A DNA stretch of 64,000 nt from Myxococcota bacterium (GCA_965228475.1 OZ245817.1:3904001-3968000); one strand, 5' to 3'. Shown: positions 5 to 14,438, numbered from the stretch's first letter. A program made the numbers and translations. Notes: generated from the sequence alone by a model not told the origin.

Positions 5-409
5 GTGCGCTCTCGGTGGGACGCGGAACCCGCCCTCGAGGAGCGGATGGGGTACACGCGCGAGCAGAACCACGAGCACTTCGCGAACGTCGTCGCACGC
101 GAGAACGCGGTCTGGCTCGCGCTCCGCGCTGGCCGGATCGTCGGGCTCATGGCCTACCGGGATGGCCTCGTCGACCAGCTCTTCGTCGAACCGCGCGACC
201 AGCGGACGGGCGTCGGGCTCGCGCTCCTCGAAAGAGCGAAGGCGCTCTCGCCGAAAGGGCTGAAGCTCTACACCCACCAGAGCAACGTCCGCGCGCGCGC
301 CTTCTACGAGAGCCAGGGCTTCGAAGCGATCGCGTTCGGAATCAGCCCGCCGCCCGAGAACGAGCCGGACGTCACCTATGCCTGGGCACCCGGCGCGCCG
401 GCGCGTTAG
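5..409 (+). CDS. GNAT family N-acetyltransferase (probably 5'-truncated by window edge)
   Basis: Motif A LFVEPRDQRTGVGLALL and N..ARAFYESQGF. Confidence 0.85.
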   Translation: MRSRWDAEPALEERMGYTREQNHEHFANVVARENAVWLALRAGRIVGLMAYRDGLVDQLFVEPRDQRTGVGLALLERAKALSPKGLKLYTHQSNVRARAFYESQGFEAIAFGISPPPENEPDVTYAWAPGAPAR

Positions 410-693
410 CGGGCGCTCGGCCCCGGCGAGCCGAAGCGCCGAGCGGCGCGCTCACGGGCCTTCGCGGCCTCGACTTCCCGGTTGCGCGGTGCGGCTTCGG
501 TGACGAGGGAATCGAGCAGCTCGTGCGCCACCTCGGACACCGAGGCGATGGCCTTCTCGAAGGCGGCCTGGTTCGCCCGGGAGGGCCTGTTGAACCCGCT
601 GAGCTTGCGGACGAACTGGAGCGATGCGGCGTGGATCTCGTCCTCGGTGGCCGGCGGATCGAAGTTGTAGAGCGTCTTGATGTTGCGGCACAT
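406..693 (-). CDS. DUF2277 family protein
   Basis: MCRNIKTLYNFDPPATEDEIHAASLQFVRKLSG signature. Confidence 0.9.
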   Translation of the reverse strand: MCRNIKTLYNFDPPATEDEIHAASLQFVRKLSGFNRPSRANQAAFEKAIASVSEVAHELLDSLVTEAAPRNREVEAAKARERAARRFGSPGPSAR

Positions 694-721
694 GGGGGCA
701 CCTCGCGTGGCTTCGGCGATT

Positions 722-1456
722 CTACCGCTGGAGGATCAGGCACGTGTAGCCGTACTCGTCGCCGAAGGTCTCGTAGATCTCCCGTTCGAGCCGGCTCGCG
801 GCGTAGATCTCGCGCTCGCCGTGCCGGGCGACGGCGTCGCGCAGCGAGGCCTCGAGGCCCGCGTAGTACGCGTGCCAGTCGCTCGAAGGCAGGCGGAACG
901 AGCCGAGCTGGTCGTAGCCGACGCTTCGCGCAAGGTCGAAGCGGGTGGCTTCGTCGCGCATGTCCGGGTACTCCGCCGCGAAGAACCGGCGCGCCCGCTC
1001 GCTCGGCTCCTCGACGAACCACACGAGCTCGGTCGCCACGAGGCAGCCGCCGGGCCGCAGGAGGGGCCGCCACCGCCGCAGCGCGTTCTCGAAGCCGATC
1101 GAGTACGCGCTGCCCTCGGCCCACAGCAGATCGAACCCCGTGCCGAAGGAATCGACGTCCGCCATGTCGGCGGCGAGCGTCGTGATGCGGCTGGCCAGGC
1201 CGCGCGCCTCGGCCTGCGCCCGAAGCGTCTCGAGGAACGGCGGGTGGAGGTCGACGGCGGTGACGTGGGCGCCGGTCTCCTCGGCCAGGACGAGCGTCGA
1301 CCCTCCGGTGCCACAGCCCAGGTCGAGCACGCGCTCGATGCCAAGCGAGTCCGGCAACGAACGAAGCGCGCGCCGCGTGGTCTCGACGCTCCCCGGGCCC
1401 TGCCGCGGAGTGCTCTCGTACAGCTCGAAGAAGAGCGCCAGTTCGTCGGGCTTCAC
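722..1456 (-). CDS. Class I SAM-dependent methyltransferase
   Basis: VLDLGCGTG motif I, RQGPGS N-terminal motif; GTG start overlaps upstream stop (GTGA). Confidence 0.88.
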   Translation of the reverse strand: MKPDELALFFELYESTPRQGPGSVETTRRALRSLPDSLGIERVLDLGCGTGGSTLVLAEETGAHVTAVDLHPPFLETLRAQAEARGLASRITTLAADMADVDSFGTGFDLLWAEGSAYSIGFENALRRWRPLLRPGGCLVATELVWFVEEPSERARRFFAAEYPDMRDEATRFDLARSVGYDQLGSFRLPSSDWHAYYAGLEASLRDAVARHGEREIYAASRLEREIYETFGDEYGYTCLILQR

Positions 1457-1836
1457 GGCTTCCCCCTCAGGAGGCCGGAGCGGGCGGCGAGGCAGGCCAC
1501 ACCACAGGCCGCCGCCGCGACGATCAGCAACCGGGAGAGCGACCCATGGAACGTGTAGAGCGGGTCCGAGGACAGCGCGAAGTGGAGCACGGCATGAACG
1601 ATCAGGAAGAAAGCGACCCCCAGCCGCGTCGCGTTTCGGACGCCCTCCTTCGGCGCGTGGCTCATCCACAGGATCGCGAAGAAGAGCGGCACGTGGAGCC
1701 CGACGAACCACTGCGACGCGGCGTCGTCCGGCAGGCTCTTCAGCAAGGGCATCAACCGCCACTCCGAATGCGTGACCGCATCGAGCTCGTGCGTGAAGAG
1801 GCAGGCGAGGCCGAGGTAGTAGAGTGCGATCGCCAC
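1453..1836 (-). CDS. DUF6713-like membrane protein
   Basis: FTHELDAV..EWRL motif, four hydrophobic segments. Confidence 0.75.
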   Translation of the reverse strand: MAIALYYLGLACLFTHELDAVTHSEWRLMPLLKSLPDDAASQWFVGLHVPLFFAILWMSHAPKEGVRNATRLGVAFFLIVHAVLHFALSSDPLYTFHGSLSRLLIVAAAACGVACLAARSGLLRGKP

Positions 1837-1888
1837 GATGCGAACCCCCTGACGGGACCGGCCCTTGGTGGCGGCGCCGGGTGCGGCT

Positions 1889-2299
1889 TCACCGCTTCGT
1901 GTCGAGGACGCGAACGAGATGGCGGAACAGGCCCTTCGAATACCAGACCGATTTCACGCGGGCGAAGGCATCGAGCGCGGGGTCGTGCTCCTCCGGGATC
2001 TCCTGCTTCGGCAGGAAGACGCCCCGGCACTTGGTGCAGCGCAGCACCGAGAGCCCACCCACCTCGCCGGAGACCAGCGTGTCCGCCCGGCACTGGGGGC
2101 ACGCTGCGCAAGGCTCCGAGAGCTCCTTGAAGCCGAGGGCCGGAGCCTGGCCACCGGCGGAACGCGCCTGGGCCGAGCGGAACGCCGTCATCTCGCCTTC
2201 GTCGAACCAGATCCCCTCGCAGGACTCGCACTGGTCGAGGTAGACGCCGAGCGCCCGCACGGGCTTCAGGTGGTGGTCGGAGCAGGAAGGGCAGTCCAT
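1889..2299 (-). CDS. Double zinc-ribbon (zf-TFIIB-like) protein
   Basis: CPSC...DQCESCEGIWFDEGE and CPQC...CTKCRGVFL. Confidence 0.8.
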   Translation of the reverse strand: MDCPSCSDHHLKPVRALGVYLDQCESCEGIWFDEGEMTAFRSAQARSAGGQAPALGFKELSEPCAACPQCRADTLVSGEVGGLSVLRCTKCRGVFLPKQEIPEEHDPALDAFARVKSVWYSKGLFRHLVRVLDTKR

Positions 2300-2324
2300 C
2301 GGGTCGAAACTACCTGGCGATGCG

Positions 2325-2425
2325 GGCCTTCGGCAAAGCTCCGAGCGCTGCCTCTCAGCGCTGGCCCCGCCGTGCCCGCTGCAAAATCCTACCACGCTGA
2401 TCTGAACCCGAGTACAGGGCGCCCG
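2325..2425 (-). repeat. Degenerate attC remnant (type A)
   Basis: ggccttcggc..gagcgctgcctctcagcgctg..aaaatcctaccacgc aligns by eye with the attC at 8628-8761; cores lost. Confidence 0.65.
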
Positions 2426-2453
2426 CCCTTTGCCTCGCCGCCCTGCCCGCGCG

Positions 2454-2666
2454 CTAGCGGGGCTGGAGCGGCGCTGCGGACGACGCGTGGGAGGTCAGGC
2501 AGTACCGGCCGAGGGTCGCGGCCGTGGTGACGCTGCCGACCGCTGCGAACACCGCCAGGAGCGCGATCGCCGCCGCGCGCATCGGCCACGGGAGCCGGCG
2601 GGGCCGCGCGGTGAACGAGCTCGGGTACTCGACGATCCCGACCGGGTTGACGCGAGGAAGTTCCAT
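2454..2666 (-). CDS. Small hypothetical membrane protein
   Basis: 70-aa ORF with one hydrophobic segment, fills the gap between same-strand genes. Confidence 0.45.
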   Translation of the reverse strand: MELPRVNPVGIVEYPSSFTARPRRLPWPMRAAAIALLAVFAAVGSVTTAATLGRYCLTSHASSAAPLQPR

Positions 2667-2736
2667 GGCAGTTGGATGCCCGAGGCCACGGCTCCGTTTC
2701 GCGGCGTCGAGCGGCCGGGGAACACGCGCTCGCCCT

Positions 2737-3207
2737 TCAGGGGCTCTCTTCAGTACGCGCGAGGGCGAGCCGCTCGTCGACCACCGCGGCGAATCCGGGG
2801 TCGAAGGCACCGCGCTGCCGCGTCCACCAGGACCGCGTGGCCGGCATCAGGAAGGCCTGGTCGATGTCCGAGAGGTACTTCTCGCCCATGAACGAATCCA
2901 CCTCACGGGCCAGGTAGCCGAGGTGGATCCGGTTGAAGAAGGCGAAGCACAGCATCCCGAAGTGTTCGCGATCGTCCTCGGTCATCTCATCGGGGGACTG
3001 CATCGCGCGGCGCCAAACCCGGTAGAGCTCCGGGTTGGTCTGCACCTGCTCGAAGATCCCCCGGATCCCGGCCACGTAGTTCTCGTGCAGCGTGAAGCGC
3101 ACCACGTGGCTGTTCTGACGGATCTGCACGGCCAGATAGACCAGCGACCCGATCACGCCGATCGCACCGGCCAGCTCGGCGAGGGCCCCCACTGCATCCC
3201 AGTTCAT
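2737..3207 (-). CDS. Hypothetical protein with N-terminal TM helix (MNWDAVGALAE...SLVYLAVQIRQN type)
   Basis: Recognisable conserved N-terminus; ATG lies 7 nt after a TGGTAGGAT motif. Confidence 0.8.
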   Translation of the reverse strand: MNWDAVGALAELAGAIGVIGSLVYLAVQIRQNSHVVRFTLHENYVAGIRGIFEQVQTNPELYRVWRRAMQSPDEMTEDDREHFGMLCFAFFNRIHLGYLAREVDSFMGEKYLSDIDQAFLMPATRSWWTRQRGAFDPGFAAVVDERLALARTEESP

Positions 3208-3244
3208 GCGGAGGATCCTACCACGGCGTTTCGGGCGACCGGCG

Positions 3245-3622
3245 TCAGGCGGGGGCCGAGAAGCACAGGATGTACCCGTCCGGGTCCTCGACATAGAAGT
3301 CGCGGCGGCCCCAGGGCCGGACCTCGACGCGGCGCAGGATCCGCGCGCCTCGCCCGACGAACTCGTCGCACAGCGCGTCGACGCCGGTTGTGTCGAAGTA
3401 GACGTCGAGATGCTCGTGCTCCCTCCGATGCTCCCGGTCGGCGGTGAGCTTCCGCGCCTGCTTCAGATGGACCGTCCCGCCCTCTCGCGTCACGCTCGCG
3501 TAGAACTCTTCGTAGACGAAATCCACCGAGAACCCGAGCACATCCTCGTAGAAGCGCAGCGATCGGCCGAGGTCATCGACGAGGAGCTGGGCTGCCGCGG
3601 TAGTGATCCTCGGATCAGACAT
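3245..3622 (-). CDS. VOC/glyoxalase family protein
   Basis: VDDLGRSLRFYEDVLGF ... PWGRRDFYVEDPDGY. Confidence 0.92.
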   Translation of the reverse strand: MSDPRITTAAAQLLVDDLGRSLRFYEDVLGFSVDFVYEEFYASVTREGGTVHLKQARKLTADREHRREHEHLDVYFDTTGVDALCDEFVGRGARILRRVEVRPWGRRDFYVEDPDGYILCFSAPA

Positions 3623-3648
3623 CTGGCATCGACTCCGTCAGAGCAACG

Positions 3649-4386
3649 CTAACTCGCGCCACGGTAGACCGAGATCTCCACCGCATCTGGCAGATCGCTG
3701 TACTCGATGCGGGCGGTGCGGTGCTCGGAATCGTAGCGCCCGCAGGTGCGGACGTACTCGAGGTACGGCTCGGCGCCGAACATCTCGCCGACGTTGTCGG
3801 CCACCACGATGCTCCCCTCGCGCAGGAGCCCGCGCTCCTCGAGGAGCCGGAGGTCCTTCTCGTAGAGATCCTTCCAGTGGTCGAGGAAGACGAGATCGAA
3901 GGTGCCCTCGAGCGTTCCGATGACCTTCGACGAGGACCCTTCGAGGATCTCGACCCGGCCGGCGTATCCCGCGTAGGCGACGTTCGCGCGAGAAGCACGG
4001 ACCGAATCCGCGTTCACCTCGATCGAAGTGAGCCGGCCCTCCGGCCCGAGCTCGCCGGCGATCATGATTGCGGAGTAGCCGCAGTACGCCCCGAGCTCGA
4101 GCACCCGCGCGTTCGCCGGAAGGCGCCCGATCAGCTCCGCCATGAGCGGCCCCTTCTCCGGCCCGACATTCATGAGGAACCGCCGCTCACGAGCGAACCG
4201 ATCCATCGCCCGCAGCACGCCCTCCGGGTCGCCCTCCTCCGCGTTCTCCTCGACGAACCGGCGAACCTGCTCGACCCGCGGCGGCGCGCCGGTCACGAGA
4301 TCCGCCACGAACTCATATGCGCGGCGGGCCGTCCACGGGAGGGCTTTCGGGGAAAGGAAACGGGCGAGGTTCAGAAGCTGTGCCAT
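3649..4386 (-). CDS. Catechol O-methyltransferase-like protein
   Basis: LMNVGPEKG, VLELGAYCGYS, FLDHWKDLY, VVADNV motifs. Confidence 0.92.
   Translation of the reverse strand: MAQLLNLARFLSPKALPWTARRAYEFVADLVTGAPPRVEQVRRFVEENAEEGDPEGVLRAMDRFARERRFLMNVGPEKGPLMAELIGRLPANARVLELGAYCGYSAIMIAGELGPEGRLTSIEVNADSVRASRANVAYAGYAGRVEILEGSSSKVIGTLEGTFDLVFLDHWKDLYEKDLRLLEERGLLREGSIVVADNVGEMFGAEPYLEYVRTCGRYDSEHRTARIEYSDLPDAVEISVYRGAS
4357..4382. repeat. 26-bp direct repeat, copy 1 (within 5' end of the O-methyltransferase gene)
   Basis: gaaacgggcgaggttcagaagctgtg; 25/26 identical to 5986-6011. Confidence 0.85.
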
Positions 4387-4551
4387 GGGTGCACCTCGCT
4401 GGCTGCAAGAGCGCGGTCGGGTCAGGAAGACACGGAAACCCTACCACGACACGCAGGATCCAAGTCGACGTCGCCCGCTGTTGCATTCCTCGCCGGCCAC
4501 CTTCGGAAGAGGGCGTCTTCCCGGGAGCTTCGTGTGATAGTTTGATCAACC

Positions 4552-5949
4552 GTGCGGCACCTCATCGCAAGCCTCGTGTGCCTCTTCCTCGTACCCGACC
4601 TCGGGCAGAACAGGCCCGTGTGGCCCTCAGCCGAAGCGGCCCCGGCATCGACTCCGAACGCTCGTGAGGCTCCCGAGGTATTGGAGCTCCGAGCCGGCGT
4701 AGACGCCGGCGACCCCTCTGCAATGTTGAAGCTCGCGCTGCATCTACTGAAGGGGAACCCATCGCAGCAGGCCGAGGGATTCTCTCTTCTCGAAGCCGCA
4801 GCGCAATCTGGATTGGCGCCGGCCCAGCTTCTGCTGGGAGAGCTGCACATCCTGGGGCGTGCGCCGAGCGCGGAGCCCGAGCAGGCGTTCCGCTGGATGC
4901 GAAGGGCCGCCGATCAGGGCCTCGTCGAGGCCGAGTTCCAGATGGGCCAGATGTACTACCAGGGCTTCGGAACCTCGCAGGACCGCGCCGCCTCGGTCGA
5001 GTGGTATCGGAAGGCCGCCGCGCGCGGCCATGCTGGAGCGACGAATGCTCTCGGCGTGCTCCTATCCACCGACGAGGTATTCATCAAGGATCGGACAGAG
5101 GCCGCACGCTTGTACAGAGTCGCGGCCGAGTCCGGGGATGCCGTCGGCCAGTTCAACCTGGCGAAGCGGCTCGCCGACGGCGACGGCGTGAAGAAGGACC
5201 CTGCGCGCGCCACCTACTGGTTTCACCAGGCGGCTCAGCGGGGCCATGTCGCCGCCCAGTACGACCTGGGCCTCCGCTACCTCGACGGGATTGGAACGAC
5301 CCAAGATGTCGAGGAGGGTCGGTCTTGGCTCGAGCGCGCCGGCGACGCGGGCTTCGGGCCGGCGTATCGCGCCATCGCATACCGACTTCTGGCGTCACCA
5401 GCGACCCGCGCGAGCGCGGCCGAGTGGTTCGAACGCGGGGCCGAAGCGGGCGACGCACACTCGCAGATCGCCGTCGTCGAAGCACGGATCCGGGGAGAGA
5501 TCGAGCCTGAAGACCCCGCCGACGATCTACGGAAGATCTTGGCCCTTGCCGATGCGGGCGACCTCTCCGCCATGATCACGATGTCCATGGCCCACTACAA
5601 AGGCTACGGCGTCACCCAGGACCCACTGTCAGCATTCTCTTGGGCGCAGCGCGCAGCACTCGGTGGCCTCGCCCGCGGAGAGTCGATGCTTGGGATGTAC
5701 TACGGGAAGGGAATTGGCGTCCAAGCCGATCCGAAGAAGGCAGTCGAGTGGTACCGCAAGGCCGCTGCCCAGGGGGAGCCCAACGCCCAGTACTCACTTG
5801 GGGTTCACCACCTTCTCGGGAAACACGTCCGCAAGAACCCCAAGAGAGGCATCGCGTTGCTGGAGGCGGCAGCGAAGCAAGGCAACGCCGAGGCGGCCGC
5901 GGTGCTGGAGAAGCTGAGGCGGCGCCAGCGCTCCGGCGCCGCACGCTAA
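4552..5949 (+). CDS. Sel1-like repeat (SLR) exported protein
   Basis: Signal-like N-terminus and ~10 repeats of AQ..LG..Y..G.G..QD...A..WYRKAA. Confidence 0.93.
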   Translation: MRHLIASLVCLFLVPDLGQNRPVWPSAEAAPASTPNAREAPEVLELRAGVDAGDPSAMLKLALHLLKGNPSQQAEGFSLLEAAAQSGLAPAQLLLGELHILGRAPSAEPEQAFRWMRRAADQGLVEAEFQMGQMYYQGFGTSQDRAASVEWYRKAAARGHAGATNALGVLLSTDEVFIKDRTEAARLYRVAAESGDAVGQFNLAKRLADGDGVKKDPARATYWFHQAAQRGHVAAQYDLGLRYLDGIGTTQDVEEGRSWLERAGDAGFGPAYRAIAYRLLASPATRASAAEWFERGAEAGDAHSQIAVVEARIRGEIEPEDPADDLRKILALADAGDLSAMITMSMAHYKGYGVTQDPLSAFSWAQRAALGGLARGESMLGMYYGKGIGVQADPKKAVEWYRKAAAQGEPNAQYSLGVHHLLGKHVRKNPKRGIALLEAAAKQGNAEAAAVLEKLRRRQRSGAAR

Positions 5950-5985
5950 GGCCGGTTCTCCGCTAGCAGAGTCGGAACTTCAAGA

Positions 5986-6011
5986 GAAACGGGCGAGGTT
6001 CAGGAGCTGTG
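5986..6011. repeat. 26-bp direct repeat, copy 2
   Basis: gaaacgggcgaggttcaggagctgtg. Confidence 0.85.
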
Positions 6012-6042
6012 TCGAGGCTTCACGCTCTGCCTTCGGAGCAGG

Positions 6043-6504
6043 TTAGACACCGTAGTAGCCCAGGAGGAGACCGTTGAGCCAGCGGCCGAACAGGAAGCCC
6101 ACGGCCACCAAGCCGAGATTGAGCAACGCGTAGCTCGCGCGCGCCCACCCGGGCGGCACGGCGCGGGCCGATACCAGGGTCGCGAGGGCGAAGAAGAACC
6201 ATGCCCCGGTGCAGACGAGAAGCGGCTTCCCGAGAAGAAACATCAGAGGCAGGTCGTGGAAGACCAGACCAGAGGAGAGAAAGGTGATCACGACGGCCAG
6301 CGGCCGATTCTCGCGGCCGCCGAGCGTCCGATAGAGACGATGAAGCACGAATCCGGCGAGAGGACTCCACGTGCGCCAGAAGTTGTGGAACCCCGGCTCG
6401 AACCAACAGTCGACGAACATGCGCCGGATCACCCGAAGAGGAGGCATCGAGGCGGGGTAGCCCCGAGCCTCGAGGTATTCCTGGTAGGACGGCGCGGAGG
6501 TCAT
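6043..6504 (-). CDS. Membrane protein, MBOAT acyltransferase-like fragment
   Basis: FHNFWRTWSP and TFLSSGLVFHD resemble MBOAT motifs; several TM segments. Confidence 0.6.
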   Translation of the reverse strand: MTSAPSYQEYLEARGYPASMPPLRVIRRMFVDCWFEPGFHNFWRTWSPLAGFVLHRLYRTLGGRENRPLAVVITFLSSGLVFHDLPLMFLLGKPLLVCTGAWFFFALATLVSARAVPPGWARASYALLNLGLVAVGFLFGRWLNGLLLGYYGV

Positions 6505-6530
6505 CGAGAACTCGCTCGGCTCGGCGGCAG

Positions 6531-6893: not shown

Positions 6894-6897
6894 GTCC

Positions 6898-7007
6898 GGC
6901 TCCTGTGATCTGCACCACCAGCGCCGCGCCACTTTGTCCAACGCCAGAACTCTACCACCCGGCGTTCGGGCACGACGCCTGGCCCCTGCTGATAGCCATT
7001 GCTAGGC
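6898..7007 (-). repeat. Degenerate attC (type A)
   Basis: acgccagaactctaccac...ctgctgatagccattgctaggc matches the corresponding half of the 10282-10415 site. Confidence 0.75.
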
Positions 7008-7307
7008 AGCCGGACTCTCCGGCTCCGAACCCGCGAAACGACGAACCTGGCGAAGAACCCAGCGACCATCGGAAATGAGGTAGCGACCCAAGAAGAAGAG
7101 CAAGGCGCACTTCACCGCGTTGAATGCGAGGGACGCAAGCATCTGGGAGAGTGGAGTGACCCCAGGGTGACTCTCCGGAGATGCCACAGCGGCATAGGCG
7201 ATGCTGGGCAACCACGCGACGGCGTTGACCGCAGAAAACGCAGCCTGGAGCCAGGCGTAGAGGCCCAGGACTCGTATCGCGACCTCGAGATAGTCATTGC
7301 GAGTCAA
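7002..7307 (-). CDS. Cassette-encoded small membrane protein
   Basis: TTG start, two hydrophobic segments, stop inside attC R'' core. Confidence 0.65.
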   Translation of the reverse strand: MTRNDYLEVAIRVLGLYAWLQAAFSAVNAVAWLPSIAYAAVASPESHPGVTPLSQMLASLAFNAVKCALLFFLGRYLISDGRWVLRQVRRFAGSEPESPAA

Positions 7308-7339
7308 TGGATCTTCCCGCCGGGCCGTCTTCGGCTTGC

Positions 7340-7400
7340 TGCAATCCACCGCTGCGCCACCGAGACGCGCCAACAGAATGGTATCACGGCGCAACGGAAC
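7340..7400 (-). repeat. Highly eroded attC remnant
   Basis: ccgagacgcgccaacagaatggtatcacgg resembles ccgagaccgacgccagaatcctaccacgc of intact sites. Confidence 0.45.
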
Positions 7401-7410
7401 CCATGCGATC

Positions 7411-7935
7411 TCAGCGACGGAGCCTGAAGTGCCCCTCCCGGAGGCCCGACTCTGCGGCACGCAGCACCTCCTCTTCGCTTCGACCAAGTGTGCTGATGAC
7501 ATGCGACTCGTACTCGCCCAGCTCCGCGAAGGCGGCGACCGTCGGCCGCACTCGAGCACTCGCACCGACCCCCTGGCGCTCTCGAACCCGACGTAGCGCC
7601 TCTGCCTCAGGGACGCGGAGCACCAGGTATGACGCGTCGATATCAGGGGGTAGCTCCGCCATGACTACGGGGAGAAACCACGGGCCGAAGATGCCGTCCA
7701 GCACGACCAGATACCCACCCTCGAGAAATGCACTTGCCGCCCTCGCGGTCGCGCGGACGATCGTAGTGTTCTGGGCGTGAGATTCGGGCTTCGTTGGCTC
7801 GATGAAATGAGCTGGGAAGCCATAGAACGTGTCGCCAGTGAGATGCAGTCCTTGCGGGTGGGCCTTTGAAATCGATGCGGAGAGTGTCGTCTTGCCGGCG
7901 CCGGGGCAGCCCGACACGATGATGAGGGAAGCCAT
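7411..7935 (-). CDS. P-loop NTPase/kinase (AAA_33-like)
   Basis: IIVSGCPGAGKTT Walker A; VVLDG. Confidence 0.88.
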   Translation of the reverse strand: MASLIIVSGCPGAGKTTLSASISKAHPQGLHLTGDTFYGFPAHFIEPTKPESHAQNTTIVRATARAASAFLEGGYLVVLDGIFGPWFLPVVMAELPPDIDASYLVLRVPEAEALRRVRERQGVGASARVRPTVAAFAELGEYESHVISTLGRSEEEVLRAAESGLREGHFRLRR

Positions 7936-8021
7936 TCGTACCTCGGGTCTGGAGTACGGGTCAGGTCGAGCGAGATGAAGGACCTGGCTTCCTAGTTCAT
8001 TGTCGGCTCTCGGTTCGCTTC

Positions 8022-8099
8022 GTCACCCAAGCGGGAATCCAGAAGTCTACCAAGCAGGAGTGCAGACGCGGTGGTCGTCAGCTGCAACCCTTGTCAGGC
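8022..8099 (-). repeat. Truncated attC (type B, R' half missing)
   Basis: ...ggtcgtcagctgcaacccttgtcaggc matches the end of 13736-13864. Confidence 0.75.
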
Positions 8100-8633
8100 G
8101 GCAGGCCCCTGAGAGCGCGCCTCGACCAGGATCGCGACGAACGCGTATCCGGCCATCAGAAGGAGGAATACCAAATTGAGGAGGTAGGAAAAGAACAGCC
8201 ACGGCGAGAAGAAGCCTGCGACGGTGAGGAACTGAGCGAGAACCAGGGAGATTCCGATGACGTGTACAGCCATGAGCGGCCCCGACCGGCCGATCTGGCG
8301 CTCGCCTCGCAGGTTGACGCGCCAGCGCGCCCGAGAGTGGGCGACGATGATGGCGAGATGATAGGAGCCCAGGAGCAGGCCCGAGACGCGCCATGCGTGC
8401 GTCGGCTCCAAGTGACTCGCACGCGCAAGGTCAGGGACGAAACCAAAGACGACAACCCCCAGGCTGCATCCCAGAAGTGCGATGAGCGCCGGAGCGTCGT
8501 CCGGCTGCCAGGCTCCGTTCTCGCGCCCTCCGAGCACCATGACGACACCGGTGAATCCGGCGAACGCGATGGCGACCTCGGCCAAAGAATGGAGGATGTC
8601 CTGATGCTCCAGAATCCCGCTCCTGCCGCCCAA
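8094..8633 (-). CDS. Cassette-encoded multi-pass membrane protein (start uncertain)
   Basis: LAEVAIAFAGFTGVV motif, ~5 TM segments, stop inside attC core. Confidence 0.8.
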   Translation of the reverse strand: MGGRSGILEHQDILHSLAEVAIAFAGFTGVVMVLGGRENGAWQPDDAPALIALLGCSLGVVVFGFVPDLARASHLEPTHAWRVSGLLLGSYHLAIIVAHSRARWRVNLRGERQIGRSGPLMAVHVIGISLVLAQFLTVAGFFSPWLFFSYLLNLVFLLLMAGYAFVAILVEARSQGPAA

Positions 8634-8761
8634 CGGATCAGGCCTTCAGCAGCGCCGAGGGTGCTGACACTCAGCGCTGCACCACCGTGGCCGATGCCAG
8701 AATCCTACCACGCCGCATTCGAGCCCAAGCCCTTGGCGTCCGCTGCAAGGCATCGTTAGGC
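8628..8761 (-). repeat. attC site (type A, both cores canonical)
   Basis: Minus strand GCCTAAC...TTGCAGCGG...GCTGAAG...GTTGGGC imperfect palindrome. Confidence 0.93.
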
Positions 8762-8780
8762 GGCGGGCGTTGACCACGAA

Positions 8781-9545: not shown

Positions 9546-9559
9546 CGATGTTCCCTGCC

Positions 9560-9693
9560 GCCTCACGGATCAGGCCGCCAGCGGCGCCGAGGGGGCTGAC
9601 TCTCAGCGCTGAACCACCGCGACCGATGCCGAAATCCTACCACGCCGCATCCGATCAGGAGCCCTTGGCGTCCGCTGTAAGGCCTTGCTAGGC
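9560..9693 (-). repeat. attC site (type A, cores mutated: GCCTAGC / GTGAGGC)
   Basis: High similarity to 8628-8761. Confidence 0.9.
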
Positions 9694-10275
9694 GGCTCCG
9701 CCTGCGAGAGGCTCTCCGCATTGAGAGCACCGTTCATCTTCCAGGGTGGCGCTGGCCGCGCACGCTGGGCAAATCTGCCAGCCGGTCGGAAACGGGAGGC
9801 CGCAGTCACTGCACTCAGTTGCTCCCGTCTCGGCGCTCGTGCCACAAGCGGGGCAGTGATCGAGTTCGGTTCCAGTCTGGGCGGACTCGCCTGGAGGACT
9901 TGGCATTCGCGATTCTTCGTGCGCCTCGACCAAACGTAGAGCAGCCTCGACAGACGACTCCTCGACATAGAGCGCCAGGTTGTAACCGTGACCGGCGCTC
10001 CCTTTTACCGCACCACGAGCGTCAATCGAGGACCCCGGCGGATCGGTGTCGATCTTGCTTGAGATGCCCCTCTCCTGGAGGAATATTGCTTGCTGTTCGA
10101 GCTGCCAGGGACCTCCGTACGAGACGATCTCCAGGTTACTCAGGTACGCGAAACCGGCTGGGCTCGGCGGCGGACTCCAGGGTTCGAGCGTGACATGACA
10201 ATCCGAGCAGGTCTCGACATCAAGCCTGTACTCGATGTGGCACGAGGGGCAGAGTTTCGCGAGTACGAAGTCCAA
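9688..10275 (-). CDS. Zinc-ribbon + DUF2007-like + double zinc-ribbon protein
   Basis: Six CxxC pairs; central FLQERGISS...LYVEESSVEAALRL. Confidence 0.8.
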   Translation of the reverse strand: MDFVLAKLCPSCHIEYRLDVETCSDCHVTLEPWSPPPSPAGFAYLSNLEIVSYGGPWQLEQQAIFLQERGISSKIDTDPPGSSIDARGAVKGSAGHGYNLALYVEESSVEAALRLVEAHEESRMPSPPGESAQTGTELDHCPACGTSAETGATECSDCGLPFPTGWQICPACAASATLEDERCSQCGEPLAGGAA

Positions 10276-10281
10276 GAAGCC

Positions 10282-10415
10282 GCCTAACGGATCAGGCCTT
10301 CAGCAGCGCCGAGGGCGCTGACTCTCAACGCCGCACTACCGAGACCGACGCCAGAATCCTACCACGCAGCATTTTGGGGATGAGCCTTGGCGCCTGCTGA
10401 TAGGCCTTGCTAGGC
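10282..10415 (-). repeat. attC site (type A, GCCTAGC / GTTAGGC)
   Basis: Near-identical to 12497-12630 over ~80 bp. Confidence 0.92.
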
Positions 10416-10419
10416 GGCA

Positions 10420-10888
10420 CTAGTCAATCTTGTTGATCGGGAGGTCGACTCTCGGATCGATGGTCAGGTTGATGATGCCTTCCGCCACCTTCCGAAACCC
10501 TTCAGATGTCTTGCGTAGCTGCGAGGTTTCAAGGACTTCCCTGTCCACCCGCAAACCGCGCTTGGCCTTTGCGCTGCTCTTGGTTCTTAGCGCGCCCTCA
10601 ATATCTGCCGGTGCCCAGATCGAATGGAGCAGCTTGTTTCGCTCCATCTCAGCCTTGGTGATCGCAGTTCGAAGAGACTCGATTTCCTGGATGTACGATT
10701 CGTCGTTGGTGGATTCTTTGAGCACCGAGAGAAGAAATTTCGTTGGAATCTCTGCTGAAACGATTTCGCCGACCGTCGTATCTGCTGACAGTGCTGCTTG
10801 CAGTGGAACAGTGAGACTCAACTCAAGGACCCAACGCCTTGAGGAAATCGTCGTCGAGGTAGTGTTCAAAGAATGTCCTTCGCGCCAA
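10420..10888 (-). pseudogene. Disrupted HEPN-like cassette gene
   Basis: N-terminal piece LARRTFFEHYLDDDFLKALG stops at 10823-10825; another frame continues LELSL...ERNKLLHSIW (Rx4H motif). Confidence 0.6.
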
Positions 10889-10918
10889 CGCAGCCGCCTG
10901 GCTAGCCCACAGGCAGCA

Positions 10919-11773
10919 TCAGATACTGACCTTGTCCGACTTGGATCTATTGCAGTCGAAACATGTGAGTCGGATGTTCTGCTCCTCTGAACTGCCGCCT
11001 TTGGAGATCGGAATCTCGTGATCGAATTCGACTTCGTTGTCTCGCAGGTGCTTGCCACACCGTTGACATGTGTAGTTGTCACGCCGTACGACCCGAATCT
11101 TTGTCTTGAAGGAGATGTATCGACCTGTTCGGCGTAGTTCGGAGGTTTCGGTCATCTGCTCAGCGTTGAATACGGCAGGGCATAGGTGACCAAAGACGTT
11201 GCACGACGCGTCGATGAGCCAACCTGGAATCTCTTCCGGGTAGTCAGCAGCATCGAACTCGTCGATCTCCCGCTGAAAGTGCTCTCTCTGTTCGTCAGTG
11301 ATGGGGCGAAGGTTGCCAACGATCCCTGTCTTGAGGGCCCGCTTCATGTCTTCGTTGACAGCAACCGCAGCCTCGCGCGTCAGATCATCACCGATGTCCC
11401 GGCCAAGACGCTGCATCATTGTGATCTCGCCAGTCGGGTCAGGCTCGTAGTCCCCTGGATTGAAGTCGGCGACGCAATCCTCGAAGTCCTGCCTAGTCTG
11501 ATCATCGAGAGGTTCGCCATGTCCGGCCATGCCGCTGGCGAGACAACCCTTGATGTACTCCAAGTGATCAACTGCATCCTCGCGTGTCTGCGGAAGCAGG
11601 GGAGATTGCTCGACCAGGGGACCGTAGGGACAGTACTTCAGCTCCCAACACGGCTTGCACACACGGTTGGCTCGCTGCTCCCACCACGATGCGAAATCAG
11701 CATCGGACAGCGTGTCCGGGAGCGCGAGTGCTCTTCGAACGGCAGGATGGAGTCGCTGTTCTGCAGACGCCAC
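10919..11773 (-). CDS. HNH endonuclease with Cys-rich N-terminal domain
   Basis: RDNYTCQRC...EFDHEIPISKGG...NIRLTCFDCNRSK. Confidence 0.92.
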   Translation of the reverse strand: MASAEQRLHPAVRRALALPDTLSDADFASWWEQRANRVCKPCWELKYCPYGPLVEQSPLLPQTREDAVDHLEYIKGCLASGMAGHGEPLDDQTRQDFEDCVADFNPGDYEPDPTGEITMMQRLGRDIGDDLTREAAVAVNEDMKRALKTGIVGNLRPITDEQREHFQREIDEFDAADYPEEIPGWLIDASCNVFGHLCPAVFNAEQMTETSELRRTGRYISFKTKIRVVRRDNYTCQRCGKHLRDNEVEFDHEIPISKGGSSEEQNIRLTCFDCNRSKSDKVSI

Positions 11774-11784
11774 GATTCGATGCC

Positions 11785-11915
11785 GCCTAGCGGACTAGGG
11801 GTTTCGCTGCGGCCAACGGCCGCCGAGGTCGCAGCGCCACCCGAGTAACGACGCTAGGATTCTACCAAGTCAGTTGGAGGCTGCGTTGGTCGGCAGCTCT
11901 AACCCCGTGTCATCC
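11785..11915 (-). repeat. attC site (type B, cores mutated: GGATGAC / GCTAGGC)
   Basis: Similar to 13736-13864. Confidence 0.85.
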
Positions 11916-11926
11916 GGCATCGCTCC

Positions 11927-12493
11927 CTACCTACCGCGGCGCTTCTTTCTCGCTGTCTGCTTGCGCCCCCGTTTGTGTTGGCGCTCGTAAAACAGAGTGC
12001 CTGCTTCAAAATCTCGAATGTTGCCAGGCTGGATGTCTACTCGCTTCTTGCGTTCATTGAACTGGAGCTGTGAGCCCCCTGCTCGGATTAACAGAGTCTC
12101 GATCTCTCGCTCATGAGTCTTCTCTGCGACAATGTAGAAGGAGAAGTACTGGAGTTCCGAGGAGTGAGCCTTCTTGCGGGAAGCCAGACGCCTGAACACG
12201 TTGCCGCGGCCAACGTATCGAGCGGAACCCATCGAGTCGTGAGCTACGTAGACGCCGTTTGGTGTGATCCCTTCGCTGGCAACGTCCTTTCTGACATCAT
12301 CGAGCGCATCGAATGGCAGCTTCTCTGCGACAAGAGTGAAGAGTGGCTCGATCTTTCGTGGTCGCCCACGCCCACGGGTGAGCTGACCAGCCTTAACGGA
12401 CCAGTGCGAGTTACTCCAGACGGTGGAGTAGACGGTCTTGGTGGCCTGAGGCTTCGATCGCCGCTTCTTTCGTACTGCCATGCAACCGCTCAT
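11927..12493 (-). CDS. GIY-YIG nuclease family protein
   Basis: GVYVAHD...RYVGRG..FRRL...H...EREIETLLI...N. Confidence 0.8.
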   Translation of the reverse strand: MSGCMAVRKKRRSKPQATKTVYSTVWSNSHWSVKAGQLTRGRGRPRKIEPLFTLVAEKLPFDALDDVRKDVASEGITPNGVYVAHDSMGSARYVGRGNVFRRLASRKKAHSSELQYFSFYIVAEKTHEREIETLLIRAGGSQLQFNERKKRVDIQPGNIRDFEAGTLFYERQHKRGRKQTARKKRRGR

Positions 12494-12496
12494 GCC

Positions 12497-12630
12497 GCCT
12501 ATCGGATCAGGCCTTCAGCAGCGCCGAGGGCGCTGACTCTCAACGCCGCACTACCGAGACCGACGCCAGAATCCTACCACGCTGCCCTTGGACAGAAGCC
12601 CTCGGCGGCTGCTGATAGGCCTTGTTGGGC
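12497..12630 (-). repeat. attC site (type A, GCCCAAC / GATAGGC)
   Basis: Imperfect palindrome near-identical to 10282-10415. Confidence 0.92.
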
Positions 12631-12642
12631 AGCTGCACGGGC

Positions 12643-12912
12643 CTACTCGTCAGAATCCAGCTCCCCGGTCGCAAGAAAGGTGAGCTCGCGATCTGAGAAC
12701 TCGGACTCTTGAAGCAGCCAACGGGCTCGGTGAGCCGACTCCGCACTAACCGAGGGCCGCACCTTTGCGGGAACAGCTGCGACAGATTGGGTGACATAAA
12801 CGGATGAGGAGACTCCGCCCGAGCGGAGCATGCCCTGGACGACCTCGGCAGTACCAATCGAGTCGAACTCTAGAACGAACTCACCATCCTGGATGGAGTC
12901 GCCGTCGCTCAT
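12643..12912 (-). CDS. DUF2007-like (putative signal-transducing) small protein
   Basis: AEVVQGMLRSGGV...VSAESAHRARWLL pattern; fills the cassette exactly. Confidence 0.7.
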   Translation of the reverse strand: MSDGDSIQDGEFVLEFDSIGTAEVVQGMLRSGGVSSSVYVTQSVAAVPAKVRPSVSAESAHRARWLLQESEFSDRELTFLATGELDSDE

Positions 12913-12915
12913 GCC

Positions 12916-13022
12916 GCCTAGCGGATTCGGCGCTCAGCGGCCGCCTCGCCGCAGGCGGAGGCTTGGAGCGCCCTAGGTTGATGCCAGGATTGTACCAGGG
13001 TCGGATGGAAGCCTGGGTAGGC
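12916..13022 (-). repeat. attC site (third sequence type, one arm partly deleted)
   Basis: gcctagcggattcggcgctcagcggccgcct arm present; partner arm reduced to taggcggc. Confidence 0.7.
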
Positions 13023-13027
13023 GGCGC

Positions 13028-13728
13028 CTAGCCTGTCTTCCTGAACTTATACGTATCCCAGGGGGACATGCCGACTCTCGAGCGGACGAACTTTCGAACT
13101 TGGTTGGACGATATAACAGCCAGCCGGAAGACCAGCTCACTGGCGCGCCGATAACGTGTAAGGGTGACGCGGCTTTCCGCAACAACTCGATGCGCGATCT
13201 CTCCGCGAAGAGTGATTAGGTCTTCAAGTCGCGACTGTGCGCGCTCTGCCGACATGTTCTTCCAGCGCCAATTCGACGAGAGCCTCTGGAACCCGACCAT
13301 GTGAAGGAAAAGCTCATCAACCTGTTTGGGCGGGGAGTGTTTAGCCTCCGCACATAGCGATCGAGGACCTGGTCTCGGTACGAGACGAGAACATCACGCC
13401 AGCCATCTTCTGCCAGTGCCCAGACGCGCCGTGGGTCGCTTTCTTTCTGCAGGCCACCGGCACAGAGTGCCAGGATTTTCGGTGCGAACGCTCCTGGGGA
13501 CTCTGCGTGTTCCAGCGTGAAGTCAACAGCATTGACTGCAAGATCTTCGACGAATGCCTCCCAAGACCCGACCAAGAATACGATCGCACTCCGAATCAGA
13601 ATATTGGGCTCAACGAGCGGCGCGTGGGGATCGTCACGTAAGTGTTCGTAGGTCTCGACGAGCGTATCGAGATCTCTCATGCTCGCTCGCAGCGTGCCGA
13701 TATGGGATGGCTCTTCTTGTTCGGTCAA
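13028..13728 (-). pseudogene. HEPN-domain protein split by a -1 frameshift (pseudogene, programmed frameshift or sequencing error)
   Basis: RSAIVFLVGSWEAFVEDL in ORF1; LRGEIAH (Rx4H) in ORF2; frames join at C-CCA-AAC (13324-13330). Confidence 0.75.
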
Positions 13729-13735
13729 CGGCGCC

Positions 13736-13864
13736 GCCTAACGGATCAGGGGTTCAGCTGCGGCCAACGGCCGCCGAGGTCGCAGCAGCACCCGAGTGCA
13801 AAGCCAGAACCTACCACGCAACTGGAAGGCCGCGTTGGCCGTCAGCCGCAACCCCTTGTTAGGC
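13736..13864 (-). repeat. attC site (type B, both cores canonical)
   Basis: Minus strand GCCTAAC...GTTAGGC with long complementary arms. Confidence 0.93.
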
Positions 13865-13873
13865 GGCCCACTC

Positions 13874-14344
13874 TCAGGGGAGCCTAACCCGAACAAAGGC
13901 CGGCTTCTGCGACATTGCATGAAACACGCCGCAGTAATAGCGCCCCGTCTTGCCGTAGTTCGCGACCGCCTCGTCTTGGTTGATGCCACCGGTCCATCTG
14001 TCGCCGGGTTCGAGCCTATGGGGGAGCGGCGGGCCGAACGGAACGTTGCCGACGACGAATCTGGCGCTTGCTCGGTCGAACAACGCATGGAAGATGGACT
14101 TGTAGTGAACGCCTGCCAGGTTCGTAATCGTGGTGGCTTGGCCCCCGTGGTTCGTAACTGAGACAAAGATGAACGTGGCATCGGGGGCGCTTGGAAGGGG
14201 CGGCATCGCCTGCATGTCGGGACTGGCGTAAACCCTGATCTCGGCTCCACGTCGTCGCCACTTGTAGACGTCCCAGCCGAGCACTGCAGTGGCAACGATC
14301 GCGCCCCACCACGCAGCGACGTCTGTAAGGGAGAGAGAATCCAT
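13874..14344 (-). CDS. First-position cassette: N-terminal TM helix plus beta-rich domain, hypothetical
   Basis: VAAWWGAIVATAVLGWDVYKWRR then VSVTNHG. Confidence 0.8.
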   Translation of the reverse strand: MDSLSLTDVAAWWGAIVATAVLGWDVYKWRRRGAEIRVYASPDMQAMPPLPSAPDATFIFVSVTNHGGQATTITNLAGVHYKSIFHALFDRASARFVVGNVPFGPPLPHRLEPGDRWTGGINQDEAVANYGKTGRYYCGVFHAMSQKPAFVRVRLP

Positions 14345-14359
14345 CTGCTCGCTTGGGCC

Positions 14360-14438
14360 GCCTAGCTAGTCTATCGGTCGGCCCCCGAGTATCTCTCGGG
14401 GTCTTGATCGTTCAGTCCGGAGTCTTGGCCGTTCAGTC
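14360..14438 (-). other. attI-like site with two 21-bp direct repeats
   Basis: GCTAGGC core (14360-14366) with no attC partner arm; repeats at 14397-14417 and 14418-14438 (18/21 identical). Confidence 0.6.

What the first reader, a model, noticed from the sequence alone, without database searches (positions are those of the whole stretch)
406..14366. Cassette domestication gradient: the array fades into ordinary-looking chromosomal genes
Seen: from 14.3 kb leftwards, attC sites go from mostly full-length (13736 to 8628) to half sites (8022, 6898) to faint remnants (7340, 2325), and at 3215 and 4438 only the bare promoter-like motif is present. Over the same span the genes shift from A/T-richer codons to host-like high GC. 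All ORFs from 406 to 14344 except the Sel1 gene are on the minus strand. Known: VOC proteins, methyltransferases, small kinases and small membrane proteins are typical cassette cargo, and distance from attI reflects cassette age. Inference: the left 7 kb are old cassettes that have become fixed genes.
Basis: partly seen in the sequence, partly recalled or inferred. Interest (0 to 1): 0.7.

Follow-up and report, generated by a model that had tools for sequence, protein, structure and literature searches.

The report
Integrase-less integron fading into fixed genes
A gene-capture array (integron) that has lost its own recombinase grades, over about 12 kb, from mobile-looking cassettes into ordinary-looking host-like genes; this is a clear example of a predicted route by which captured genes become permanent.

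Summary
Window 2.3-14.4 kb (minus strand) is a real integron cassette array. Seven complete attC sites lie at 8.6-13.9 kb. Eroded sites lie at 8000-8104, 7332-7409, 6919-7010 and 2312-2426. A 13-mer attC relic lies at 3212-3224. The relic claimed at 4438 is not above chance.

GC3 rises from about 0.60 to 0.94 with distance from 14.36 kb (rho 0.90, n=23).

New here:
- The array starts at an attI-like site homologous to the attI of the genome's main integron.
- That main integron (intI plus 39 attC) lies 466 kb away. msrA sits where intI would be, so this is a CALIN with its own attI.
- The distal end of the main integron shows the same GC3 rise.
- All 13 sites keep TGnTAnnnT facing the next gene, which looks like an extended -10 promoter. 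This is untested.

Cassette origin is supported for 2.4-6.9 kb. It is open for the four genes at 0.4-2.3 kb. The sister species lacks the whole block at this locus.

This is a known kind of element; Cury et al. 2016 predicted this intermediate. The scan has met integrase-less integrons with attI before on other DNA.

The parts
14358..14432 (-). attI-like array head, ending in the core GCTAGGC|GGC. It contains two GACTGAAC direct repeats.
   Evidence: 46 of 61 ungapped identities to the main integron attI. Alignment score 62 against a maximum of 42 in 4000 random genome segments. A 30-mer pattern is found only at these two places in G000 and in 0 of 60 relatives.
14579..15220 (-). msrA, a native flank gene, sitting where intI sits in the main integron
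   Evidence: PF01625 E 1e-61. The msrA-AOR pair is syntenic with G001 at 83% nt identity. No intI match in the window.
13874..14344 (-). cassette 1 ORF (156 aa, no family)
   Evidence: GC3 0.73
13733..13867 (-). attC 1, full length, second sequence type
   Evidence: CM 110 bits. Hairpin z -4.9.
13028..13728 (-). RiboL-PSP HEPN cassette gene split into two frames (13216-13728 and 13028-13300)
   Evidence: PF18735 matches the N-terminal part in one ORF and the C-terminal part in the other
12912..13026 (-). attC 2, short type
   Evidence: CM 48.5 bits
12643..12912 (-). cassette ORF (89 aa) with a paralogous cassette in the main array
   Evidence: Window 12489-12941 is 85% identical to genome 4373295-4373747
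12493..12633 (-). attC 3, full length, main-array type
   Evidence: nhmmer E 5e-42; CM 153 bits
11927..12493 (-). cassette ORF (188 aa, no family)
11781..11902 (-). attC 4, second type, with a degenerate R'' end
   Evidence: CM 71.9 bits; nhmmer E 0.009
10420..11773 (-). cassette with an HNH endonuclease gene (10919-11773) and a 133-aa ORF (10420-10821)
   Evidence: PF01844 E 2e-12
10278..10418 (-). attC 5, full length
   Evidence: nhmmer E 5.5e-41; CM 151 bits. The fold shows R''/R' pairing, an unpaired spacer and two single-base bulges.
9688..10275 (-). double zinc-ribbon cassette gene
   Evidence: PF12773
9556..9696 (-). attC 6, full length
   Evidence: CM 137 bits
8781..9566 (-). cassette ORF (261 aa, no family)
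8624..8764 (-). attC 7, the last full-length site
   Evidence: CM 154 bits
8094..8585 (-). small membrane-like ORF (163 aa)
   Evidence: GC3 0.79
8000..8104 (-). half attC. The R''-L'' arm and the motif TGGTAGACT are kept; the L'-R' arm is lost.
   Evidence: CM 17.6 bits, E 0.039; sequence read
7411..7935 (-). P-loop kinase-like gene (AAA_18, AAA_33, CPT)
   Evidence: GC3 0.72
7332..7409 (-). attC remnant with the motif changed to TGATACCAT
   Evidence: CM 16.9 bits, E 0.055; nhmmer E 0.24
7002..7307 (-). small membrane-like ORF (about 101 aa)
6919..7010 (-). half attC (profile positions 2-94) with the motif TGGTAGAGT. The 3' arm is replaced by a leader with AGGAG ahead of the VOC-2 ATG at 6893.
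   Evidence: nhmmer E 4e-10; CM 32.3 bits
6531..6893 (-). VOC/glyoxalase gene 2
   Evidence: PF00903 E 1e-20; GC3 0.83
6043..6504 (-). ORF (153 aa, no family)
   Evidence: GC3 0.82
4552..5949 (+). Sel1-repeat gene, the only plus-strand gene. It is flanked by a 38-nt direct repeat (4357-4394 and 5986-6023).
   Evidence: PF08238 E 2e-65; repeat family D17
4438..4446 (-). bare motif TGGTAGGGT, 51 nt upstream of the OMT start
   Evidence: Weak. This 9-mer class has 16-18 background hits per strand per genome. CM 6.3 bits, which is noise level.
3649..4386 (-). O-methyltransferase gene
   Evidence: PF01596 E 6e-17; GC3 0.87; found in 10 of 61 genomes including G000
3245..3622 (-). VOC/glyoxalase gene 1
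   Evidence: PF00903 E 1e-16; GC3 0.87
3212..3224 (-). attC relic: the 13-mer GTGGTAGGATCCT, ending 7 nt before the ATG at 3207
   Evidence: The 13-mer class occurs 39 times in the genome, only in the two arrays
2454..3207 (-). a 156-aa membrane-like ORF (2737-3207) and a 70-aa ORF (2454-2666)
   Evidence: The family is multi-copy and found in 22 of 61 genomes. Copies sit next to attC in G001:C256 and G021:C106. A paralogue lies in the distal zone of the main integron.
2312..2426 (-). last detectable attC remnant (profile positions 23-138), with the motif TGGTAGGAT intact
   Evidence: nhmmer E 2e-8; CM 35.7 bits, E 6e-6
406..2299 (-). four small genes with no attC trace: Zn-ribbon (1889-2299), DUF6713 (1453-1836), SAM methyltransferase (722-1456) and DUF2277 (406-693). 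They are either the oldest ex-cassettes or flank.
   Evidence: Pfam; GC3 0.90-0.94; DUF2277 found in 10 of 61 genomes

Best explanation
The stretch is a second integron platform of this genome that has lost its integrase gene. It is a CALIN that still has its own attI.

Shown:
- The cassette sense is the minus strand, and the array starts at an attI-like site at 14358-14432.
- That site and the attC sites are homologous to those of the main integron 466 kb away, which encodes the only integron integrase in the genome.

Inferred:
- That integrase works in trans and inserts new cassettes at 14.36 kb, which pushes older ones leftwards.
- The seven proximal cassettes (8.6-14.3 kb) are still mobile units with complete attC hairpins and low GC3.
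- Further out, the attC sites have lost the L'-R' arm or more, so those cassettes can no longer be excised.
- The genes in these eroded cassettes stay intact while their synonymous sites drift toward the 70% GC of the host. The genes at 2.4-6.9 kb (a 70-aa ORF, a 156-aa ORF, VOC-1, OMT, a 153-aa ORF and VOC-2) are therefore former cassettes that are now immobile.
- Sel1 is a later insertion in the opposite orientation.
- The four genes at 0.4-2.3 kb may be the oldest cassettes or simply flank.
- The one part of the attC that every site keeps is TGnTAnnnT, reading toward the next gene. I read it as an extended -10 promoter carried by the attC, which would let each cassette, and later each fixed gene, be transcribed on its own.
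For: - Array and orientation. There are 49 profile hits at E<1, all minus-strand and all in two arrays. Folds show R''/R' pairing, an unpaired spacer and two bulged bases on the R''-L'' arm of the plus (bottom) strand. The alignment shows compensatory changes in the stem.
- attI. 46 of 61 identities to the main attI, with 0 of 4000 random segments reaching the score. The 30-mer is unique to the two array heads and found in 0 of 60 relatives.
- Integrase. One intI above the family cut-off, at 4384365-4385318, and none in the window.
- Eroded sites. Four non-training hits score above all background in 64 kb. The 13-mer at 3224 is otherwise exclusive to the arrays.
- GC3 gradient. rho 0.90, p 5e-9, n=23.
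- Replicate at the main integron. Mean GC3 is 0.64-0.69 over the 18-kb intact zone, 0.72 in the degraded-attC zone, then 0.79 and 0.87 in small minus-strand genes beyond the last attC.
- Accessory status. G001 keeps both flanks, with a 5.5-kb gap without attC where G000 has 17.6 kb. DUF2277 and OMT are each found in 10 of 61 genomes.
- Exchange with the main array. An 85% identical cassette is shared.
- Motif. All 13 of 13 window sites and 40 of 42 aligned attC sites keep TGnTAnnnT. In the six eroded sites the 16-nt motif block is 80 of 96 identical to a majority consensus, against 193 of 306 for the 5' part and 249 of 438 for the 3' part.
Against: - Erosion is not monotonic. The farthest remnant (2312-2426, 35.7 bits) outscores those at 7332 and 8000.
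- Inside the intact zone neither attC score nor GC3 trends with position, so the pattern is a step with a tail.
- The sites at 4438 and, by the covariance model, 3215 score at noise level.
- There is no attC trace left of 2312.
- Few homologues of the distal genes elsewhere have an attC within 1.5 kb: DUF2277 at 0 of 9 loci, OMT at 0 of 10 and the 156-aa ORF at 1 of 11. The model may miss foreign attC types.
- High GC3 could reflect where the cassettes came from rather than their age.
- The promoter reading has no -35 element and was not called by the consensus scan.
- The exact TGnTAnnnT pattern is found in only 3 of 19 attC hits in relatives.
- Two of the six eroded sites were found through the motif itself, which biases the retention count.
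- No RNA data were available.
Confidence: 0.68

Rival explanations
1. Only the stretch from 6.9 to 14.4 kb is the integron. The genes to its left are ordinary accessory chromosomal genes, native or acquired by other routes. The attC fragments among them are debris from unrelated events, such as secondary-site insertions or deletions that dragged array pieces outward.
For: - GC3 of the 0.4-4.4 kb genes (0.87-0.94) lies within the host range of 0.78-0.95.
- There is no attC trace left of 2312.
- Homologues are mostly not next to attC.
- The flank further left (GNAT, VOC, DUF1772-like, PhyH, DUF4336) has similar small enzymes on mixed strands and no attC.
Against: - The relics at 2312-2426, 3212-3224 and 6919-7010 are all on the cassette strand and in the intergenic slot directly upstream of a minus-strand gene.
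- GC3 is graded (0.71-0.83, then 0.87-0.94) rather than stepped.
- The same graded tail follows the main array.
- The 156-aa ORF family recurs beside attC in G001 and G021 and in the tail of the main array.
Confidence: 0.17
2. The GC3 gradient reflects origin, not age. Distal cassettes were made from, or donated by, high-GC genomes, and proximal ones came from lower-GC sources. attC erosion is an independent process.
For: - In the 18-kb intact zone of the main array GC3 is flat at 0.64-0.69 despite presumably different cassette ages.
- Individual cassettes vary from 0.57 to 0.77.
Against: - GC3 and attC erosion change together in two separate arrays.
- Intermediate values (0.71-0.83) sit exactly where the half sites are.
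Confidence: 0.15
3. The conserved TGGTAGGATTCTGGC block is not a sigma-70 type promoter. It is a recombination or structural element of this attC family, or a sigma-54 promoter (GG-N10-GC).
For: - In intact sites the block fits TGG...N...GGC with the sigma-54 spacing (read).
- It lies in the branched central part of the folded strand.
- No -35 element was found.
Against: - Only 1 of 6 eroded sites keeps GC at the sigma-54 -12 position, while 6 of 6 keep TG, TA and the final T.
- The positions that vary (GGA, GAC, CCA, GAG, GGG, AAT, CAA) are those a -10 hexamer tolerates.
- A recombination element has no reason to outlast the loss of R'/L'.
Confidence: 0.3

Closest known systems
CALIN (cluster of attC sites lacking an integron integrase), Cury et al. 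2016, PMC4889954 (passages read, sections 13-25)
   Same: - Two or more attC sites with no intI nearby, in a genome that encodes IntI elsewhere.
- No intI pseudogene next to the array, as for 95% of their CALINs.
- The authors propose that CALINs with very degenerate attC sites are an intermediate toward stabilising captured genes.
   Different: - This one keeps a recognisable attI homologous to that of the complete integron in the same genome.
- It shows the intact-to-eroded series and a GC3 rise within a single array.
- The same rise appears at the tail of the complete integron.
Sedentary chromosomal integrons with homogeneous attC families, such as the Vibrio superintegron VCRs (described in PMC11014356 and PMC4889954, passages read)
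   Same: - The main integron has 39 near-identical attC sites of about 140 nt and small cassettes, mostly of unknown function.
- The window array uses the same attC family.
   Different: - The host has 70% GC.
- In the main integron intI reads toward the cassettes.
- The window copy has no integrase.
Cassette-borne and gene-less-cassette promoters (PMC11014356 and review PMC8876359, passages read)
   Same: - Promoters inside arrays allow expression far from Pc.
- One Vibrio cassette had transcription starts inside its attC.
   Different: - Here the candidate promoter is a conserved part of the attC family itself, present in 40 of 42 sites.
- It survives attC erosion.
- I saw no such built-in attC promoter in the passages read. 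Two full-text searches listed none by title or abstract.
Cassette insertion at non-att genomic sites (preprint 10.1101/2022.09.11.507474, abstract seen only in the search listing)
   Same: It offers a route by which attC-bearing cassettes end up away from an integron.
   Different: The window array begins at an attI homologue, not at an arbitrary genomic site. Secondary-site insertion is therefore not needed to explain it.

Membership tests
integron attC site / cassette array | Inverse core RYYYAAC (R'') and core GTTRRRY (R') at the two ends of an imperfect palindrome | tested here: met
   GCCTAAC ... GTTAGGC at the ends of the full sites. Some sites have variant cores: GCTAGGC, GATAGGC, GTGAGGC.
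integron attC site / cassette array | The single strand folds into a hairpin with an unpaired spacer and extrahelical bases on the R''-L'' arm of the bottom strand | tested here: met
   DNA folds of 6 strands have z from -1.0 to -4.9. Two single-base bulges lie on the 3' arm of the plus strand. The bulged bases are T and C/A rather than the T and G that I recall for class 1 sites.
integron attC site / cassette array | Several sites in one orientation, separated by short co-oriented ORFs | tested here: met
   7 full sites spaced 0.4-1.5 kb apart, all on the minus strand
integron attC site / cassette array | Match to the IntegronFinder attC covariance model | not testable with these tools
   That model is not available here, and Rfam gave no attC family hit. 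A model built from this genome's own sites was used instead.
complete integron | intI with the integron-specific domain adjacent to attI and the array | tested here: not met
   TIGR02249 finds one gene above the cut-off, 466 kb away. There is no match in the window at E<=0.001. msrA abuts the attI side.
CALIN | At least 2 attC sites with no intI within 4 kb | tested here: met
attI site | Array-proximal site with a GTTRRRY-like crossover core and integrase-binding repeats, recombining with attC | tested here: inconclusive
   Homology to the main integron's array head is significant and two GACTGAAC repeats are present. The core is GCTAGGC, not GTT, and recombination is untested.
sigma-70 extended -10 promoter | TGn immediately upstream of a TAnnnT hexamer; transcription start 5-9 nt downstream | tested here: inconclusive
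   The sequence pattern is met at 13 of 13 window sites. No -35 element was found and no call came from the consensus scan. No RNA data were available.

The most novel reading that the evidence does not exclude
The attC family of this integron carries a built-in extended -10 promoter (TGGTAGGAT) in its central loop. Every cassette would then be transcribed from the attC of its upstream neighbour, independently of Pc, as an mRNA that lacks the 5' arm of the hairpin. When the recombination arms erode, selection keeps this promoter. That would be the step that turns a mobile cassette into a self-sufficient, fixed chromosomal gene.
Probability: 0.33. Interest if true: 0.7.

Novelty: new member of a known kind. 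Interest (0 to 1): 0.45.

Why it matters
Integrons are usually studied as devices for gaining and shuffling genes. How captured genes leave the mobile pool and become ordinary genes is mostly conjecture.

This single complete genome shows the whole series twice: intact cassettes, half sites, relics, then host-like genes. Once it is beside a working integron and once in an integrase-less copy. That makes the process measurable through erosion order, amelioration and strain turnover.

If the attC-borne promoter is real, it would also explain how cassettes far from Pc are expressed in this lineage, and what is preserved when a cassette is domesticated.

Tried and rejected
- Rfam scan of 1-25 kb: no attC family. 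The only two hits were far below their thresholds.
- Consensus promoter/terminator scan: it did not call the motif and found nothing above shuffled expectation.
- Public runs: no RNA holder listed. Five rows hold the stretch or part of it, one of them with 0.84 of the words.
- Laying reads: not carried out, so the strain comparison and any expression reading remain open.
- IntI-based search of genome contigs: the 80 loci kept were all 61% identical or less and came from many phyla. They were of no use for close comparison.
- G013 integron: no visible GC3 gradient, but that genome's own GC3 (about 0.75-0.80) leaves little contrast, so the result is uninformative.
- G022 region: DUF2277, a VOC-like ORF and attC hits lie within 25 kb of each other, but with mixed attC strands and no clear array. 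Not pursued.
- Whether G001 keeps the main-integron locus: the gene to the right of intI sits about 170 nt from a G001 contig end, and the tail genes of the main array have almost no G001 match. This is suggestive only.
- Sigma-54 reading of the motif: considered and ranked below the extended -10 reading (see rival explanations).

Full report
**What is there**

The window is G000:C1:3904001-3968000 of a 5.0-Mb, single-contig genome of about 70% GC. Between 7 and 14 kb, GC drops to 0.57-0.63 against 0.66-0.77 elsewhere.

Repeat finding gave a 143-nt family with 4 copies, a 36-nt end motif with 7 copies, and partial copies at 6919-7010 and 2347-2399. Read on the minus strand, each full copy starts GCCGCCTAAC and ends GTTAGGCGGC. 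It follows the stop codon of a minus-strand ORF and precedes the next one. This is the layout of integron cassettes. Rfam holds no matching family.

**attC sites and orientation**

I aligned 35 full copies from the genome and searched the whole genome with the profile. All 49 minus-strand hits at E<1 fall in two places: 10 in the window and 39 at 4361907-4383836. The best hit elsewhere has E=1.7.

DNA folds show the expected features:
- paired R''/R' ends;
- an unpaired spacer;
- a long stem with two single-base bulges on the 3' arm of the plus strand;
- a branched centre.

The plus strand is therefore the recombinogenic bottom strand and the minus strand is the cassette sense, which agrees with the ORFs. 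The stem shows compensatory pairs, such as CAGCAG/CTGCTG against CAGCGG/CCGCTG.

**No integrase here, but an attI**

The only integron integrase above the TIGR02249 cut-off is at 4384365-4385318 (422.6 bits), next to the 39-site array. Nothing in the window matches at E<=0.001.

Right of the window array lie msrA (14579-15220) and an aldehyde:ferredoxin oxidoreductase gene. Both are syntenic with the same-genus genome G001.

The 75 nt just upstream of the first cassette (14358-14432) align without gaps to the head of the main array:
- 46 of 61 positions are identical.
- The score is 62, against a maximum of 42 in 4000 random genome segments.
- A 30-mer pattern shared by the two heads occurs nowhere else in G000 and in none of 60 relatives.

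The element is therefore a CALIN in the sense of Cury et al. 2016 (PMC4889954, passages read), but one that keeps its own attI. The near-identity of several window attC sites to main-array sites, and an 85% identical shared cassette, fit service in trans by the distant IntI. That is inference.

**The erosion series**

A covariance model of 42 sites was run unfiltered over all 64 kb. The seven full sites, which were in the training set, scored 48.5-154 bits.

| Site (not in training set) | Bits | E-value |
|---|---|---|
| 2307-2443 | 35.7 | 6e-6 |
| 6844-7003 | 32.3 | 3e-5 |
| 8000-8104 | 17.6 | 0.039 |
| 7332-7409 | 16.9 | 0.055 |
| Best unrelated hit | 13.9 | - |

- The sites at 8000-8104 and 6919-7010 keep the R''-L'' arm and the centre but lack the L'-R' arm.
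- The 13-mer GTGGTAGGATYYT occurs 39 times in the genome, 34 in the main array and 5 in the window including 3224, and never elsewhere on either strand. So 3215 is a genuine relic.
- 4438-4446 matches only a looser 9-mer that has 16-18 background hits per strand, so I treat it as unproven.
- The series is not monotonic. The farthest remnant (2312-2426) is the best preserved of the eroded ones.
- Model bits against distance from attI give rho -0.65, p 0.017, n=13.

**Composition**

Gene starts were refined. GC3 then rises with distance from attI (rho 0.90, p 5e-9, n=23).

| Window region | GC3 range |
|---|---|
| 8.8-14.3 kb | 0.60-0.73 |
| 4.5-8.6 kb | 0.71-0.83 |
| 0.4-4.4 kb | 0.87-0.94 |
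| Long host ORFs | median 0.90, 5th percentile 0.78 |

All gene models are minus-strand except Sel1.

**An internal replicate**

The main integron behaves the same way. Distances below are measured from its attI.

| Zone of the main integron | Mean GC3 |
|---|---|
| 18 kb with uniform attC sites | 0.64-0.69 |
| Last 4 kb, where attC scores fall | 0.72 |
| Genes 22.3-26 kb out, beyond the last attC | 0.79 |
| Genes 26-30.5 kb out | 0.87 |

The genes beyond the last attC are small and minus-strand: PEMT-like, GST, unknowns, RpiB, GFA and DUF1801. Two three-mismatch copies of the motif sit in intergenic gaps there (4358200 and 4360585). These tail genes have almost no match in G001.

**Are the distal genes core?**

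No, by the evidence available.

- G001 shares the left block (G000 3894091-3900993) and msrA-AOR. Between them it has 5.5 kb of other genes and no attC, where G000 has 17.6 kb.
- DUF2277 is found in 10 of 61 genomes, OMT in 10 of 61, and the 156-aa ORF family in 22 of 61, often in several copies. All counts include G000.
- Few homologues sit beside an attC that my model can see: DUF2277 at 0 of 9 loci, OMT at 0 of 10 and the 156-aa ORF at 1 of 11 (G021, 19.4 bits).
- G001:C256 adds one more case. There a 34% identical homologue of the 156-aa ORF abuts the first of three attC sites.
- That G001 array ends 2.4 kb from a DUF2277 pseudogene, as the window array ends near DUF2277. This hints that the two arrays are orthologous, but the G001 contig stops inside the array.

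**What can and cannot be claimed**

Cassette origin is well supported for the genes between the relics at 2312 and 7010. For the Zn-ribbon, DUF6713, methyltransferase and DUF2277 genes (406-2299) there is only indirect evidence: strand, size, patchy distribution and absence from the G001 locus.

'Fixed' is untested. The one strain-level comparison I attempted could not be run. Age and source of composition cannot be separated with these data.

**The motif**

All 13 window sites carry TGnTAnnnT on the cassette strand, 7-127 nt upstream of the next start codon.

| Site class | Number | Forms of the motif |
|---|---|---|
| Full sites | 7 | TGGTAGGAT, TGGTAGAAT, TGGTACAAT, TGGTAGGTT |
| Half sites | 2 | TGGTAGACT, TGGTAGAGT |
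| Remnants | 2 | TGGTAGGAT, TGATACCAT |
| Bare motifs | 2 | TGGTAGGAT, TGGTAGGGT |

- 40 of 42 aligned attC sites have the pattern. G, G, T and the final T are among the 16 invariant columns.
- The positions that vary are the ones a -10 hexamer tolerates.
- In the eroded sites this block is better kept than either arm. Two of those sites were found through the motif, so the count is biased.

The reading as an attC-borne extended -10 promoter is plausible but weak:
- There is no -35 element and no call by the consensus scan.
- No RNA data were available.
- Only 3 of 19 attC hits in relatives show the exact pattern, although by eye most have a TAnnnT hexamer at that position.
- A sigma-54 reading (GG-N10-GC) fits intact sites but only 1 of 6 eroded ones.

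**Literature**

- Cury et al. 2016 already suggest that CALINs with very degenerate attC sites may be a step toward stabilising captured genes (section 25, read).
- Cassette-borne promoters, and one case of transcription starts inside an attC, are reported (PMC8876359 and PMC11014356, passages read).
- I saw no description of a promoter conserved within an attC family in those passages or in the listings. That is not proof of absence.
- The scan's own notes list several integrase-less integrons with attI on other DNA.

**Verdict**

The element is a known kind (a CALIN, or decaying integron) and an unusually clean, internally replicated example. The promoter idea is the part worth an experiment.

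Noticed in passing
genome 4354000-4385318 (loci L027, L035, L028), outside the window: The main integron has 39 attC sites of one 140-nt family. Its intI is transcribed toward the cassettes, whereas in relative G013 intI and the cassettes are divergent. Its distal end shows degraded attC sites and then small minus-strand genes with rising GC3.
   Followed up: partly
window 4357-4394 and 5986-6023: A 38-nt direct repeat (84% identical) brackets the Sel1 gene and its upstream region. One copy contains the OMT start codon and first ten codons. The other is a decayed copy without the ATG. The roughly 1.6-kb Sel1 segment looks like a later insertion or duplication at the 5' end of OMT.
   Followed up: no
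window 13028-13728: The RiboL-PSP HEPN cassette gene is split into two overlapping frames, probably by a frameshift. It is a pseudogene in the young part of the array, while the distal genes are intact.
   Followed up: no
window 10891-10919: A short palindrome (GCTGCC...GGCGGC) lies between the HNH gene and the next ORF. It may be an internally collapsed attC in which only the outer ends are left. CM 9.7 bits, which is noise level.
   Followed up: no
genome 3901010-3904409 (locus L026 8024-11409), just left of the window: Five more small accessory-type genes on mixed strands (DUF4336, PhyH, anthrone-oxygenase-like, VOC, GNAT) are also missing from the G001 locus. No attC trace was found among them.
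   Followed up: partly
G001:C256 (locus L018 10650-15426): The same-genus genome has three attC sites running into a contig end. Left of them are minus-strand genes with GC3 0.68-0.79 and then a DUF2277 pseudogene. No intI was found in that 89%-complete assembly.
   Followed up: partly
window 14367-14450: The attI-like region holds two TAGACT hexamers. One ends 7 nt before the crossover core, and the main integron has TAAACT at the same place. This may be a Pc-like promoter inside attI.
   Followed up: no
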